Assembly: GCA_951406725.2 (NCBI GenBank)
Contig: CATOCA020000001.1
Location: forward strand, 2,914,001-2,978,000
Length of the DNA: 64,000 nucleotides
From: Octopus vulgaris
Taxonomy: Eukaryota
Direction: 5' to 3'
Shown: piece after piece, positions 168 through 37,961 of the stretch
Position numbering within the stretch: position 1 is the stretch's first letter
How the letters are laid out: the number at the start of each line of letters is the position of its first letter
Made by a program: the position numbers and the translations under genes
The notes under the pieces: model-generated
The model's input: only the letters and a program-made list of their open reading frames with translations
Database searches by the model: none
What the model was told of the DNA's origin: nothing

Positions 168-396
168 CTGTTGGCACTTCTATTCTCTTGTTCTGTCTCG
201 GCCAGAACCTCCTCTGGTATGTTTAACAAATTGTTGATACTACGAAGTGTGTGGTTCAAAGTTATATTGGCCGACACAGTCGATACAAGTGGCACCATTT
301 TCTCGTGAAGGTCTACAGCCAATTCAACATCTTCTTTGAAATACACTGATTTCTGGGATACATCTAAAACCTCCTCCAAAATACTGTCGATGTTTC
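168..396 (-). CDS. Exon: helical GAIN subdomain A-like segment
   Basis: [76 protein letters not shown], phase 1-2, ttgcag/GTAATA; resembles invertebrate ADGRG-type GAIN-A. Confidence 0.8.
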
Positions 397-36300: not shown

Positions 36301-37961
36301 GTTCATTGAACAGTTATGGTTCTTTATTGATCTCTGAAATGAATGACCCAAGGTTGACCTTGGCGGGACTTGAAGTCAGATTGCCGTGTGTCAGAACGCA
36401 ATGTATTCTGCTAGACGGTCAAAAGATTTTTGCCAATCCTCGCTCAAGTTATGAACGATGAAAATATCTAACTTATTAAACAGAACTTCAACTTTACTAT
36501 TCAACATCTTGAGTTATACGAGATTTAGGAATTCCATTATTGAAACTTTTCTCTTTATTTTACATTAGGATTTCTCATTTTGTCAAAACGTTCCAAATGT
36601 TTTGAGAAATAGATCTGATCGAATGAATTGATCCACTTTAGTATTAGAATATTTGATTAAAACTGAAAGTTTAAGGTGATTAATGCAACGATGCAAGCCA
36701 ATTAACTGGAAATAATCACCTGGAAGAGCAATGTGTTGCAACAGAGTATTTGTTATGATTGCATGTATCAAATAATTACTCTTTTTTATTCTATTCCATT
36801 TCTTGAGACATTAAATTTTAATAATTTACTTAAAAATTGCGTAAGATTTCAGGTGAACGGGGATACATCAATCAGCCGAAACTTCAATTAACCTTCCATA
36901 ATTTTGTAATAAGGTTTATTGTGTTCGTGATAGGGTAAATTTACTGATGACATTCTATCAAAAATAAATTCTTCATAATTTGTTAAAACAGCACTATTTT
37001 GATTTCTTCACTTAGGTATTTTAAGAATTTGGCAATTTAAGCGGATCTCGTCATTATCTGCTGTTTAATTCATCTGTTTCATTTTTAATTATAAAAATAA
37101 TAATTTCTTCTATAGGAACAAACCTGAAATTTTGGGAAAGGGACAAGTCCTTTACATTGATCTCAGAGATAAATTGCTATTTATTTTACCGACTCCAAAA
37201 GAATGAAAAACAAAGTCAACCTCGACAGAATTTAAAATCGAAACGTAAAGACGAACGAAATACCGCTCAACATTTTGTCTGGCGTGCACAACGATTCTGA
37301 TAGCTCGCTGCATATTCTATTATAAAATTAACACAAATTAATAATTAACAATTATTCTGTGACACGATCAACTGATATTATATCATATTACTGTAATAAT
37401 AAGCAACAATTCAACTAATTAATGATATAATATAACTATGTGGAATACACGTTTTCTTAGCACTAAAGTTTTTATACTGTCCGTTCATTGAATATACCGT
37501 AAGATTTGATAAGTTCAGACAAATGAAATCAAAGTCAGATACTAGTCATATCCAATCTCTGTGTATGCGATGTTATATATTATAAATTCAATATGGTAAG
37601 TAACAGTTTATTTGACTTCACAGCAGGTAACATATCGATTTGTTTTACTCTAACATAAGATTGTGCTTAAAGCTGTGAGATAAACAGCATAAGCGATTAG
37701 CTGAGAACATAATCAATGAGAATTTAAAATATTGGATGTGGAAAATACGTAGAAAGTGTCAAATACTTACAAATATTCAACATTCGTCGGAATTGGTTGT
37801 GGAATTGATAGTAAATTGCGACGTGCACAATTTATTCCCGTTGTAAGTGAATTGCAATTACATGTGTTGCATATATCTGAATCAGCTTGAGTCTCCAAAA
37901 ACAATATCGTACACAGTATCAACACAAGAGACCGTCTATATGATACTACGTGGTGAAACAT
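168..37961 (-). CDS. Multi-exon gene span, 5' part of a probable adhesion GPCR (LRR + Ly6/uPAR + SEA-like + GAIN-like); continues beyond left edge
   Basis: Manually found exons all have AG/GT boundaries and chain in compatible phases without stops. The GPS and 7TM regions are not in the window, so the aGPCR call rests on the GAIN-A-like last exon. Confidence 0.8.
1680..1811 (-). mobile_element. CORE-SINE head
   Basis: GGCGCATGGCTTAGTGGTTAG..GTGTTCTTGAGCAACGCATTTCATTTC. Confidence 0.6.
2425..2579 (-). CDS. Exon: SEA-like region part 3
   Basis: [51 protein letters not shown], phase 2-1, tttcag/GTAAGT. Confidence 0.8.
2700..2915 (+). mobile_element. Penelope-like pLTR fragment in (TA)n
   Basis: About 215 bp, contains a hammerhead, (TA)n on both sides; second copy reversed at 10886-11086. 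Confidence 0.65.
2779..2813 (+). ncRNA. Minimal type I hammerhead ribozyme
   Basis: GTTT-CTGACGA-A-GAGC tcc GCTC-GAAAC-GTA-AAAC: core, stem I, stem II and palindromic ACGT stem III. Confidence 0.8.
3375..3832. repeat. (GATA)n/(GACA)n microsatellite
   Basis: Directly visible. Confidence 0.95.
4648..5017 (+). mobile_element. tRNA-derived SINE inserted after a truncated Meta-SINE head (4598-4647)
   Basis: A box TGGCTCAATAG, B box GTTTCGATTCCC; distinct body ending GACGGAGTGCCA. Confidence 0.65.
5200..5595 (-). mobile_element. Same Meta-like SINE, partially dimeric
   Basis: Two consecutive copies of the central domain; further copies at 19858-20065(+), 24720-24880(+), 37105-37310(-), 54750-54960(-), 55020-55190(-). 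Confidence 0.8.
6086..7280. mobile_element. Partial tandem plus inverted, circularly permuted ~470-500 bp unit (Penelope-like pLTR / retrozyme-like)
   Basis: 6086-6552 repeats at 6553-6800; 6801-7280 is a reverse-complement copy spanning the tandem junction; (TA)n at both ends. Confidence 0.8.
7058..7134 (+). ncRNA. Hammerhead-like motif (mirror copy on minus strand at 6340-6416)
   Basis: CTCTG-CTGATGA-(long, weak AU-rich stem II)-GAAAC-AATTT-GTT-CAGGG. Confidence 0.55.
7301..7845 (+). mobile_element. Loopless palindrome (7301-7744) plus 3' extension, Penelope-like pLTR
   Basis: About 220-bp arms centred on GCA|TGC (7522/7523); 3' end resembles the terminus of the 6086-7280 unit; ends in (TA)n. 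Confidence 0.8.
7521..7584 (+). ncRNA. Type I hammerhead ribozyme (mirror copy on minus strand 7461-7524)
   Basis: CATG-CTGATGA-T-GGCTG..TTTTCC ttgc GGAAAA..CAGCC-GAAAC-TAAATTTA-GTA-CATG; palindromic stem III. Confidence 0.8.
7881..9162 (+). mobile_element. Mariner DNA transposon, full length, inactivated
   Basis: About 31-bp TIRs (CGGGGGACGCTCAATAAGTAATGCCCCTGAC / GTCAGGGGCATTACTTATTGAACGCCCCTCG), TA on both sides, about 1.28 kb. Confidence 0.95.
8048..9090 (+). pseudogene. Mariner transposase pseudogene
   Basis: [24 protein letters not shown] motifs; frameshifts near 8240 and 8875; YSPDLAPSDF motif reads [10 protein letters not shown]. Confidence 0.92.
9701..10850. mobile_element. Inverted repeat (9701-10045 / 10359-10703) with ~310-bp spacer, Penelope-like pLTR
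   Basis: About 345-bp arms nearly identical (mirror ORFs in track); flanked by (TA)n. Confidence 0.85.
10555..10640 (+). ncRNA. Type I hammerhead ribozyme (mirror copy on minus strand 9764-9849)
   Basis: TTC-CTGAAGA-GAAAGACACAA...TTGTGCCTTTC-GAAAC-ACGT-GTA-GAA; palindromic ACACGTGT stem III. Confidence 0.88.
10886..11086 (-). mobile_element. Second copy of the 2700-2915 element, hammerhead core mutated
   Basis: Reverse-complement similarity; core reads CCGACGA and stem II GAAC/GCTC is mismatched (about 10979-11014). Confidence 0.7.
11659..11711 (-). CDS. Exon: SEA-like region part 2
   Basis: [18 protein letters not shown], phase 0-2, ttgcag/GTAAGC. Confidence 0.75.
12752..12834 (-). CDS. 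Exon: SEA-like region part 1
   Basis: [28 protein letters not shown], phase 1-0, ccatag/GTGAGT. Confidence 0.75.
13363..13766. mobile_element. Inverted repeat with ~48-nt loop, Penelope-like pLTR
   Basis: About 178-bp arms (13363-13540 / 13589-13766) next to (TA)n. Confidence 0.8.
13535..13578 (-). ncRNA. Degenerate hammerhead ribozyme in the hairpin loop
   Basis: GCTGCA-TTGAAAA-GGGG caata CCCC-GAAAC-GC-GTC-TGTAGC; stems intact, CTGANGA core mutated. Confidence 0.65.
13780..14085 (-). mobile_element. R4/Dong-like fragment
   Basis: [38 protein letters not shown], homologous to the 53103 ORF. Confidence 0.8.
14270..14453 (-). CDS. Exon: remainder of Ly6/uPAR domain
   Basis: [61 protein letters not shown] with terminal CCxxxxCN motif, phase 0-1, ttacag/GTAAGT. 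Confidence 0.88.
15893..16110 (-). mobile_element. Tx1/L1-like APE N-terminal fragment
   Basis: [16 protein letters not shown] resembles the start of an APE endonuclease domain. Confidence 0.45.
16430..16515 (-). CDS. Exon: start of Ly6/uPAR (three-finger) domain
   Basis: [28 protein letters not shown], phase 1-0, ctgtag/GTAAAC. Confidence 0.85.
17088..17228 (+). mobile_element. RTE-like LINE 3' tip
   Basis: [24 protein letters not shown] then short UTR and (ATA)n tail. Confidence 0.55.
17280..18450 (-). mobile_element. Decayed R4/Dong-like RT fragment
   Basis: [38 protein letters not shown] pieces; probable continuation at about 18690-18900 beyond (TATG)n. Confidence 0.75.
18455..18685. 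repeat. (TATG)n microsatellite
   Basis: Directly visible. Confidence 0.95.
20070..20690 (-). mobile_element. Decayed RTE-like LINE fragment
   Basis: Remnants of post-RT region ([14 protein letters not shown].., GHAIRM.., DIWCLR). Confidence 0.45.
21359..21516 (-). CDS. LRR C-terminal cap exon
   Basis: [52 protein letters not shown] (CxC...C...C), phase 2-1, ttacag/GTAAGT. Confidence 0.88.
22230..22470 (+). mobile_element. R4/Dong-like 3' end after (TAA)n
   Basis: [25 protein letters not shown], homologous to the C-terminus of the 53103 ORF; another fragment ([22 protein letters not shown]) at about 23210-23365. Confidence 0.7.
22488..23170. repeat. (TGA)n compound microsatellite
   Basis: Directly visible; (TAA)n at 22105-22217. 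Confidence 0.95.
26825..27060 (-). mobile_element. Penelope-like RT fragment
   Basis: [11 protein letters not shown] (YIDD-like)..[25 protein letters not shown]. Confidence 0.6.
27080..27572 (+). mobile_element. CR1/L2-group LINE 3' end
   Basis: [41 protein letters not shown]; (AAACT)n tail. Confidence 0.85.
27975..30225. repeat. (GAA/GGA)n polypurine tract
   Basis: Directly visible; similar tracts at 31290-33270 and 34415-35085. Confidence 0.95.
30508..30594 (-). CDS. 87-nt atypical LRR-like exon (copy B)
   Basis: Identical to 33632-33718 with the same splice sites. Confidence 0.5.
31138..31209 (-). CDS. 72-nt LRR exon (copy B)
   Basis: [24 protein letters not shown], phase 2-2, tatag/GTAAGT. 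Confidence 0.9.
33632..33718 (-). CDS. 87-nt atypical LRR-like exon (copy A)
   Basis: [29 protein letters not shown], phase 2-2, taatag/GTAAGC; LRR consensus only partly met. Confidence 0.5.
34264..34335 (-). CDS. 72-nt LRR exon (copy A)
   Basis: [24 protein letters not shown], canonical 24-aa LRR, phase 2-2, tatag/GTAAGT. Confidence 0.9.
35757..36137 (-). mobile_element. Non-autonomous Helitron-like element
   Basis: Minus strand begins A|TC(TC)nTATATAAA and ends with GC-rich hairpin (CCTGAGCAACGCCGGG) and CTAG|T. Confidence 0.7.
37771..37961 (-). CDS. First coding exon: signal peptide + LRR N-terminal cap
   Basis: [64 protein letters not shown]; acceptor ttttacag at 37982, donor GTAAGT, ends phase 2. 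Confidence 0.9.

What the first reader, a model, noticed from the sequence alone, without database searches (positions are those of the whole stretch)
168..37961. Unusual receptor architecture: LRR + three-finger (Ly6/uPAR) + SEA-like + GAIN-like
Seen: the spliced exons give [24 protein letters not shown]...RSC...C...C...[11 protein letters not shown], a cysteine-rich module with the LU-type start and CCxxxxCN end, between an LRR-CT and a GAIN-A-like segment. Established: vertebrate LRR adhesion GPCRs (ADGRA2/3) combine LRR with Ig and HormR domains, not LU. Inference: a lineage-specific aGPCR with a new domain combination. It is barely visible in the ORF track because the exons are tiny.
Basis: partly seen in the sequence, partly recalled or inferred. 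Interest (0 to 1): 0.72.

Follow-up and report, generated by a model that had tools for sequence, protein, structure and literature searches.

The report
Octopus three-finger adhesion receptor gene
Eleven small exons encode the outer part of an octopus adhesion receptor that joins leucine-rich repeats, a predicted three-finger domain and a SEA-like domain; the design is shared with snails, clams and tube worms (and, minus SEA, starfish) and is partly in print, while this copy lacks one usual domain and likely cannot cut itself.

Summary
Eleven minus-strand exons (37961 to 168) with canonical splice sites join into a 451-codon open frame: signal peptide, LRR cap, three LRRs, LRR-CT, a 12-cysteine module, a SEA-like domain and GAIN subdomain A. 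It matches the Octopus vulgaris model CAJ1099247.1 at 450/451 residues, and that model continues into GPS and 7TM. RNA-like contigs join LRR-CT, the cysteine module and SEA. A confident AlphaFold model of the cysteine module matches only three-finger (LU) proteins.

The architecture is not lineage-specific: LRR-LU-(SEA)-HormR-GAIN-7TM occurs across molluscs, annelids, brachiopods, nemerteans and echinoderms. Its 7TM is close to ADGRG2/G6, not ADGRA2/3. The octopus expansion is Ritschard 2019 group 3, and LU-bearing GPCRs of starfish and molluscs were reported in 2022-2026.

Not found in print by my searches: the SEA assignment, the link between the two literatures, phase-1 shuffling of LU/SEA/HormR cassettes, and a subclade (this copy) without HormR whose modelled GPS lacks the catalytic His and Thr. 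Ligand and function are untested.

The parts
37771..37961 (-). First coding exon from the ATG: signal-peptide-like N-terminus and LRR N-terminal cap (residues 1-63). It has its own acceptor at 37982, so an upstream 5' exon exists.
   Evidence: LRRNT E=0.049 only; paralogs P0034 and P0041 start at the equivalent Met; signal peptide judged by eye
34264..34335 (-). LRR exon 1 (72 nt, phase 2-2)
   Evidence: LRR_8 E=1.5e-4
31138..31209 (-). LRR exon 2 (72 nt), tandem duplicate of LRR exon 1
   Evidence: LRR_8 E=1.3e-3
28156..34552 (.). About 3.1 kb tandem duplication carrying the two LRR exons (28156-31434 vs 31294-34552, 81% identity including simple repeats)
25362..25433 (-). Last LRR exon (72 nt)
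21359..21516 (-). LRR C-terminal cap (4 Cys), ends in phase 1. The public model uses a weaker acceptor at 21567 that adds 17 residues.
   Evidence: loose ends of contigs match its 3' end
16430..16515 (-). Three-finger (LU) domain, exon 1 (4 of 12 Cys)
14270..14453 (-). Three-finger (LU) domain, exon 2 (8 of 12 Cys, CCx4CN end), ends in phase 1
12752..12834 (-). SEA-like domain, exon 1
11659..11711 (-). SEA-like domain, exon 2
2425..2579 (-). SEA-like domain, exon 3, ends in phase 1
397..2424 (-). Gap-free 2 kb intron at the place where most paralogs carry HormR exons; no HormR remnant found
   Evidence: tblastn with three paralog HormR segments: best hits in the window E 0.016-0.076, short, on the opposite strand and outside this intron; no N in the window
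168..396 (-). GAIN subdomain A exon; open frame and GT donor, the gene runs off the left end of the window
   Evidence: Pfam GAIN E=3e-4, below its curated cut-off

Best explanation
These exons encode the N-terminal ectodomain (signal peptide, LRRs, a predicted three-finger LU domain, a SEA-like domain, GAIN-A) of an octopus ADGRG-type adhesion GPCR that likely binds a cell-surface or matrix partner with its LRR-LU tip and would signal through an uncleaved GAIN domain to a seven-helix receptor encoded left of the window. Shown: exon chain, open frame, family-level splicing of LRR-CT/LU/SEA, membership of the octopus group-3 expansion, absence of HormR exons. Predicted: LU and SEA folds. Taken from a public gene model, not tested here: GPS and 7TM belong to the same transcript, and the GPS reads D-R-L|K-S-F where orthologs have H-L|T/S. 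Inferred from established GAIN chemistry (recalled): without His(-2) and Thr/Ser(+1) there is no autoproteolysis, but the Phe/Leu/Met of the tethered agonist are kept, so activation would come from ectodomain movement or force on an intact GAIN, as proposed for ADGRG6. Inferred: the LRR concave face is the variable recognition surface and the LU domain a conserved second contact or rigid spacer; the likely site of action is the arm periphery (nerve cord, sucker, skin).
For: Exon chain and ORF. P0012 carries LRR_8, GPS (E=1e-10) and 7tm_2 (E=7e-34). Full-length paralogs P0027, P0031, P0034, P0038, P0044 have the same order plus HormR. AlphaFold model of paralog P0005, whose LU module is letter-identical to the window's: pLDDT 83-96 over residues 91-180, pTM 0.75. 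All 8 of the top-50 VIA rows confined to that range are three-finger proteins: Prod1 Z 8.0, rmsd 2.7, 71 aligned; GPIHBP1 7.9; CD59 7.8; Lynx2 7.5; Lynx1 7.4; Lypd6b 7.2; PSCA 7.0; an ALK1-complex chain 6.8. 12 Cys are invariant in 17 of 17 diverse homologs and present in 93-102 of 102 modules. The brittle-star homolog passes Pfam Toxin_TOLIP (24.2 bits, cut-off 21.2). SEA: MUC16 SEA Z 7.8, rmsd 4.0, 102 aligned; Pfam SEA E=2e-5 to 3e-4 in Gigantopelta, Haliotis and the single-copy octopus gene. The HormR-less junction recurs in O. sinensis P0019 and in P0008, P0023, P0089. The degenerate GPS occurs in 5 of the 30 GPS motifs listed; 24 of the other 25 keep His(-2). Among 70 distinct LRR units from 17 of 18 close models, five positions taken as concave-face average 2.7 bits of entropy against 1.4 for ten other variable positions. 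Group-3 expression is highest in axial nerve cord, suckers and skin in O. bimaculoides.
Against: No ligand, signalling or localisation datum exists for this copy. GPS and 7TM lie outside the window and rest on one automated model, which lacks about 165 residues of GAIN-B and ends in what looks like retroelement text. The near-identical model P0008 stops before the GPS. The first AlphaFold model, from 31 octopus sequences, left the LU region at pLDDT 28-50. Foldseek gave no match at E<=0.001 for either model (CD59 at E=0.031). The VIA Z-scores lie in the range the tool calls middling, and generic ferredoxin folds (Z up to 8.6) outrank true SEA domains. Concave-face variability is common to LRR proteins (recalled) and had no control or dN/dS test.
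Confidence: 0.62

Rival explanations
1. This copy is a decaying or truncated duplicate. It makes a secreted or trapped ectodomain, or no protein, and the 7TM belongs to a neighbouring copy that the gene predictor fused to it.
For: The copy has lost HormR, keeps only three LRRs, and its model lacks most of GAIN-B and both catalytic GPS residues. 10 of 51 octopus models jump from SEA to the receptor's terminal exon without GAIN or 7TM. No contig is shown to be specific to this copy across SEA.
Against: The 451-codon frame is intact with 11 canonical donors. The HormR-less junction is shared with O. sinensis (P0019) and the degenerate GPS with O. sinensis P0051, so both predate the split of the two species. 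P0089 and P0023 carry more of GAIN-B behind the same junction.
Confidence: 0.22
2. The family is mainly an innate-immune or non-self recognition repertoire (variable LRR receptors of skin, gill and haemocytes) rather than a neural or tactile adhesion system.
For: LRR number varies from about 1 to 11 among close models by a rough motif count and variation is concentrated on the presumed concave face. One member has a cytoplasmic Death domain and 71% of its expression in skin. In C. minor group 3 is highest in gills. The starfish LU-GPCR LyAr2 is mainly expressed in coelomocytes and coelomic epithelium (its orthology to this family was not tested). An 'ADGRG6' protein of unstated identity is reported in O. 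vulgaris skin mucus.
Against: In O. bimaculoides the largest share of group-3/4 expression is in the axial nerve cord. No microbial binding or induction data were found. This rival shares the receptor mechanism of the best explanation and differs only in the partner.
Confidence: 0.3
3. One reading: a lineage-specific aGPCR with a new LRR+LU combination, comparable to ADGRA2/3.
For: The first two word-index searches returned only Octopus-labelled proteins and two unlabelled entries later identified as O. bimaculoides. None of 35 vertebrate-type ADGRG6/G2 entries and none of 10 amphioxus entries has the LU module.
Against: 49 of the 113 new proteins from a 7TM-based search carry the module (4 of them weakly, 16-20 bits), from molluscs to echinoderms. 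The 7TM tree puts the cephalopod-type clade inside molluscs (SH-aLRT 95) and far from ADGRA. LU-GPCRs are in print.
Confidence: 0.03

Closest known systems
Octopus-specific adhesion GPCR expansion, group 3 of Ritschard et al. 2019 (PMC6408891; read: parts 2-3 of 6, passages, supplement rows)
   Same: Three proteins in the window gene's clade (clusters of P0058, P0064, P0044) are listed as class B group 3 in the paper's tables. LRR is reported in 5 of 22 members and a Death domain in one.
   Different: The main text has no occurrence of 'three-finger' or 'Ly6' and its InterPro table none of SEA. The table holds one unnamed SSF57302 hit (snake toxin-like superfamily, name recalled) at residues 136-215 of one member. 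O. vulgaris was not sampled; HormR loss and GPS decay are not in the parts read.
LU-domain GPCRs of starfish, molluscs and arthropods (PMC9410279 and PMC11595613: passages; PMC13719153: parts 1-3 of 4, figures and supplements not seen)
   Same: One LU domain in the N-terminal ectodomain of a GPCR, annotated as adhesion GPCR in starfish; found in molluscs. The legend of Fig. 2 in the 2026 paper lists LRR, GPS, LU and 7TM among its domain symbols.
   Different: No SEA in that legend. The paper leaves open independent origin or loss and reports no 7TM type for annelids, brachiopods, nemerteans or hemichordates, where searches find the module. No mention of octopus expansion in the text read. The exact architecture drawn in Fig. 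2B(2) could not be seen.
Vertebrate ADGRG6/GPR126 (PMC6954182: passages)
   Same: SEA-HormR-GAIN-7TM core and the nearest vertebrate 7TM in these searches.
   Different: Tip is CUB-pentraxin, not LRR-LU. GAIN is autoproteolysed and the mammalian SEA is furin-cut, whereas this copy lacks HormR and the catalytic GPS residues. No furin or GSVVV motif is evident in the SEA beta2-beta3 loop (by eye).
ADGRA2/3 (LRR-Ig-HormR-GAIN)
   Same: N-terminal LRR with caps.
   Different: Ig instead of LU-SEA (arthropod ADGRA3). 7TM far more distant. Vertebrate ADGRA2/3 were not in my set.
LYPD6/LYPD6B-type LU domains
   Same: Lypd6b aligns over 80 residues (Z 7.2, rmsd 3.5). Weak UPAR_LY6_2 hits in five homologs (E 0.003-0.05). 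LYPD6 also has 12 Cys (recalled).
   Different: Embedded in a receptor, not GPI-anchored. The third finger holds a predicted 15-residue helix. No sequence hit to any PDB chain.

Membership tests
Adhesion GPCR (class B2) | GAIN domain next to the membrane | tested here: inconclusive
   GAIN-A exon in the window, Pfam E=3e-4 but under cut-off. The rest lies outside, and the public model lacks about 165 residues of GAIN-B.
Adhesion GPCR (class B2) | GPS motif and secretin-type 7TM in the same gene | tested here: inconclusive
   Both pass Pfam cut-offs in P0012, the model that matches all window exons. The link is a gene prediction; no genome or reads beyond the window could be checked.
Adhesion GPCR (class B2) | Autoproteolysis consensus H-L|T/S (common, not universal; recalled) | tested here: not met
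   P0012 has D-R-L|K-S-F; the same in P0011, P0023, P0051, P0089; 24 of 25 other listed motifs keep His. Read from the model, outside the window.
Octopus group-3 expansion (Ritschard 2019) | Falls in the octopus clade defined by the paper's members | tested here: met
   The window model groups with P0058, P0064 and P0044 (17 rows, SH-aLRT 93; 18 octopus rows, 99; quick tree). Their UniProt cluster members are group 3 in the supplement.
LU / three-finger (Ly6/uPAR) domain | Conserved cysteine frame with CCx4CN end, about 60-90 residues | tested here: met
   12 Cys over residues 199-272, invariant in 17 of 17
LU / three-finger (Ly6/uPAR) domain | Three-finger beta fold | tested here: met
   Predicted, not solved: confident model; 8 of 8 VIA rows confined to this range are three-finger proteins, Z 6.8-8.0. 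Foldseek not significant.
LU / three-finger (Ly6/uPAR) domain | Canonical disulfide connectivity | not testable with these tools
LU / three-finger (Ly6/uPAR) domain | Pfam LU-clan score above cut-off | tested here: inconclusive
   Window exon alone E=0.26, none in P0012. Homolog P0171 passes Toxin_TOLIP.
SEA domain | Ferredoxin-like beta-alpha-beta-beta-alpha-beta fold of about 100 residues | tested here: met
   Both models, pLDDT about 80-96; MUC16 SEA Z 7.8 among generic ferredoxin folds
SEA domain | Sequence homology to SEA profiles | tested here: inconclusive
   No Pfam hit in P0012. E=2.4e-5, 5.5e-5, 2.9e-4 and 0.013 in four homologs, all under the cut-off.
SEA domain | Cleavage motif (GSVVV or furin) in the beta2-beta3 loop (optional) | tested here: not met
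   A G-S dipeptide is there but is not followed by VVV and is not kept in paralogs; judged by eye
ADGRA (GPR123/124/125) | LRR-Ig-HormR ectodomain and ADGRA-type 7TM | tested here: not met
   No Ig; 7TM 36-42 bits to arthropod ADGRA3 against 144-162 to ADGRG2/6; separate branch
ADGRG6 orthologue in the strict sense | CUB-pentraxin tip and one-to-one orthology | tested here: not met
   No CUB or pentraxin. Vertebrate G2 and G6 form one branch in an unresolved basal fork, so co-orthology to the ADGRG group is the most the tree allows; other aGPCR subfamilies were not included.

The most novel reading that the evidence does not exclude
LRR-LU-HormR-GAIN-7TM is the ancestral bilaterian ADGRG receptor, and chordates lost the three-finger domain. 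Octopuses turned it into a combinatorial recognition repertoire: variable LRR number and faces, phase-1 cassettes of LU, SEA and HormR that are repeated or dropped, cleavable and uncleavable members, Death-domain members and secreted ectodomain decoys. It would serve touch-based self/non-self or immune recognition in suckers and skin.
Probability: 0.2. Interest if true: 0.78.

Novelty: new variant of a known kind. Interest (0 to 1): 0.42.

Why it matters
It ties two separate literatures to one family: the octopus adhesion-GPCR expansion, whose ectodomain was left mostly unannotated, and the LU-bearing GPCRs of starfish and molluscs, thought possibly to have arisen independently. It gives a full domain map and shows natural variants (with or without HormR, with or without a cleavable GPS, one to three LU modules, possibly secreted forms). 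That makes a natural test set for whether adhesion GPCRs need autoproteolysis, and for what a three-finger domain does on a GPCR. It also supplies candidate receptors for recognition in octopus suckers and skin. The single gene in this window is one of dozens of annotated copies, so the surprise is moderate.

Tried and rejected
No genome is held for this window, so exons left of position 1 could not be read. Pfam on single exons and on P0012 gave no LU or SEA hit above noise. The ESM Atlas feature search on the cysteine module gave one unnamed cluster at 0.76, uninformative. phmmer of P0002 against PDB sequences: 0 hits at E<=10. The first AlphaFold job (octopus-only alignment) did not fold the module, and its Foldseek search showed mostly ferredoxin-fold rows, none at E<=0.001. 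Foldseek on the second model was also not significant. The look-up of sequencing runs: no RNA holder listed on record as RNA; the 'RNA?' label is the tool's guess. MetaClust entries P0029 and P0040 were first taken as transcript evidence and dropped: P0029 clusters with O. bimaculoides gene models and both carry UniParc-type ids. HormR and GAIN-B exons were sought in the window by tblastn and not found. Other open 'exons' from the scans (1366-1201, 10559-10397, 27009-26889, 8648-8591 and others) were rejected because no homolog aligned to them. Earlier findings of this scan: none by place or by words. Literature searches: (0 papers). None of the listings or texts read describes an LRR-LU-SEA aGPCR or the HormR-less subclade, but subscription journals are not covered, and the figures and supplements of PMC13719153 could not be read and may show the LRR-LU-GPS-7TM layout. 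The careful tree did not finish; both trees are quick trees, and 8 of 74 chosen rows were left out of the first because the GPS pattern missed them. The LU-entropy part failed and is not used. No complex prediction was run: there is no candidate partner.

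
Full report
Observation. The window is AT-rich, microsatellite-rich animal DNA with no gaps. The quoted peptides are on the minus strand. Splice-site scans gave eleven exons with compatible phases: 37961-37771, 34335-34264, 31209-31138, 25433-25362, 21516-21359, 16515-16430, 14453-14270, 12834-12752, 11711-11659, 2579-2425 and 396-168. Joined by coordinate they form 451 codons without a stop, all acceptors AG and donors GT. The frame is 450/451 identical to P0012, the Octopus vulgaris model CAJ1099247.1 'ADGRG6-like', except that the model uses a weaker acceptor that adds 17 residues before the LRR-CT. 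P0012 continues into a GPS and a secretin-type 7TM. No genome is held, so that continuation could not be read.

Splicing. Contigs of four runs from four studies, RNA by the tool's guess, were laid on 11500-16600. The joint between the two cysteine exons stands in 4 of 4 runs and the joint to SEA exon 1 in 3 of 4, both at GT..AG ends. One record runs from SEA exon 1 into exon 2. Loose ends read into the LRR-CT exon and into SEA exon 3 (compared). One 516-letter contig of run X1 spans both cysteine exons with no mismatch, with a 212-letter loose end that begins in the LRR-CT exon and 33 letters on the SEA side. Several contigs carry paralog letters, and the cysteine exons are identical in several models, so this proves the LRR-CT/LU/SEA order for the family, not expression of this copy. 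The SEA-to-GAIN joint and the LRR joints were outside the stretch, and no DNA run served as control.

The cysteine module. It has 12 cysteines, invariant in 17 of 17 diverse homologs and present in 93-102 of 102 modules. With an octopus-only alignment AlphaFold failed on it (pLDDT 28-50). With 64 sequences from several phyla it gave pLDDT 83-96 and two beta hairpins, a helix and a fifth strand (the protein folded was paralog P0005, whose module is identical to the window's). Against 48,161 solved chains, the eight top-50 rows confined to this range are all three-finger proteins: Prod1 (Z 8.0, rmsd 2.7, 71 of 71 residues), GPIHBP1, CD59, Lynx2, Lynx1, Lypd6b, PSCA and a chain of the ALK1 complex. 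These Z-scores are middling and Foldseek was not significant (CD59 E=0.031). Two profile results agree: a brittle-star homolog passes Pfam Toxin_TOLIP, and a published InterPro table has an unnamed SSF57302 hit on the same region of an O. bimaculoides paralog (the name 'snake toxin-like' is recalled). I take the LU assignment as well supported but predicted.

The SEA-like domain. Both models give a ferredoxin-type alpha/beta sandwich. The MUC16 SEA domain aligns at Z 7.8 over 102 residues, but unrelated ferredoxin folds score as high. Pfam SEA hits appear in four homologs at E 2e-5 to 0.013, under the cut-off. Its place before HormR-GAIN is that of the SEA in ADGRG6. 'SEA-like' is fair.

Range. 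Word-index searches with octopus queries found only Octopus. An exhaustive search and name look-up found the same layout in Argonauta, Haliotis, Nucella, Aplysia, Biomphalaria, Ylistrum and the annelid Lamellibrachia. A search with the abalone GPS-7TM returned 113 further proteins. A local profile, iterated on the same set and so partly circular, found the LU module in 49 of 113: many gastropods and bivalves, a chiton, Owenia, Ridgeia, Lingula, two nemerteans, Patiria and Amphiura, and weakly in hemichordates. It found it in 0 of 10 amphioxus and 0 of 35 vertebrate-type entries. The SEA was detected in molluscs and tube worms only; Patiria has no room for it. In quick 7TM trees the octopus copies form one clade (SH-aLRT 99) inside molluscs (95), vertebrate ADGRG2/G6 form one branch in an unresolved basal fork, and ADGRA lies far off. 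The 7TM of this locus scores 144-162 bits against ADGRG2/6 and 36-42 against arthropod ADGRA3. So the design is old and ADGRG-related; only the expansion is octopus-specific.

What is in print. Ritschard et al. 2019 (PMC6408891; methods, results, passages and supplement rows read) describe an octopus-specific adhesion GPCR expansion, group 3, with LRR in 5 of 22 and a Death domain in one, signs of positive selection, and, for groups 3 and 4 together, expression led by axial nerve cord, suckers and skin in O. bimaculoides and by gills, ovary and skin in C. minor. Three proteins of the window gene's clade are in their group-3 tables. Their text does not name LU. Starfish LU-bearing adhesion GPCRs were noted in 2022 and 2024 (passages). 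A 2026 survey reports LU-7TM proteins in molluscs, arthropods and echinoderms, and its figure legend lists LRR and GPS (text read, figures and supplements not seen). My eight searches found no text with the SEA assignment, the link to the octopus expansion or the variants below; subscription journals were not searched.

What is particular here. The introns before LU, before SEA and before GAIN are all phase 1, so these modules can be repeated or dropped in frame. Octopus models show this: three LU (P0001), two LU (P0003), three SEA-HormR units (P0033). The window's two first LRR exons are themselves a 3 kb tandem duplicate. This copy has no HormR: the gap-free 2 kb intron holds no remnant, and the same junction occurs in O. 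sinensis P0019 and in P0008, P0023 and P0089 (some O. vulgaris models may be two annotations of one locus, not checked). Its modelled GPS replaces His(-2) and Thr(+1) by Arg and Lys, as in four other models, while 24 of the 25 other listed motifs keep the His. Ten of 51 octopus models pass from SEA to the receptor's terminal exon with no GAIN or 7TM; these are secreted forms or prediction errors.

Mechanism. Most likely a surface adhesion receptor. The LRR-LU tip would bind a partner, the SEA and GAIN would transmit the movement, and the 7TM would couple to a G protein. By established GAIN chemistry (recalled) this copy should not self-cleave, but it keeps the hydrophobic residues of the tethered agonist, so activation without dissociation is predicted, in line with the ectodomain-conformation model for ADGRG6. 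Variation among 70 LRR units concentrates at positions taken as the concave face (2.7 against 1.4 bits) while LU is nearly fixed among close copies, which suggests the LRR sets specificity; this lacks a control. Whether the partner is self (nerve cord, sucker) or microbial (skin, gill, blood cells) is open. A real alternative is that this copy is degenerate: its model lacks about 165 residues of GAIN-B and a near-identical model stops before the GPS.

Verdict. Observation confirmed, interpretation partly supported. A new variant of a known kind; interest 0.42.

Noticed in passing
P0004, P0009, P0014, P0016, P0017, P0020, P0021, P0022, P0025, P0032: Ten of 51 octopus models, in two species, go from a SEA domain directly to the receptor's terminal exon (ending AETNF or AETNL) with no GAIN or 7TM: possible secreted LRR-LU-SEA decoys, or annotation artefacts.
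   Followed up: partly
P0027, P0031, P0038, P0046, P0051 C-termini: Many full-length members end in E-T-x-F/L/I, which looks like a class I PDZ-binding motif (recalled pattern).
   Followed up: no
P0044 / A0A0L8FLR8: A group-3 member with a cytoplasmic Death domain has 71% of its expression in skin and 17% in sucker; P0041 seems to carry a remnant of the same domain.
   Followed up: partly
P0171, Amphiura: A brittle-star homolog inserts a methyltransferase-like, SRCR, C-type lectin, chitin-binding and SUEL lectin set between LU and HormR, an immune-looking ectodomain.
   Followed up: no
P0144, P0147-P0149, Branchiostoma: Amphioxus relatives go from LRR-CT directly to HormR with no LU, a possible step towards the chordate state.
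   Followed up: partly
P0012 residues about 830-1091: The model's tail is much longer than in paralogs and ends in what looks like retroelement-derived text (judged from recall); its N-terminal 13 residues map to window 48460-48422, probably a 5' exon.
   Followed up: no
window 21567 vs 21516: Two in-frame acceptors for the LRR-CT exon; the upstream one has a poor pyrimidine tract but is used by several O. vulgaris models (17 extra residues).
   Followed up: partly
window 8036-9089, 53079-54404, 63056-64000, 41792-42581: Mobile-element remnants by their look in the ORF list: mariner-like transposase, non-LTR retroelement ORFs, a GIY-YIG/Penelope-like piece. Labels recalled, not tested.
   Followed up: no
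window 40127-42810 and 49478-52132; 55225-56618 and 58187-59049: A 2.7 kb direct duplication at 96% identity and several 0.6-0.8 kb duplications upstream of the gene.
   Followed up: no
P0145, Mizuhopecten: A plexin-B2-like model fused to a weak LU module and this family's 7TM; probably two neighbouring genes merged.
   Followed up: no
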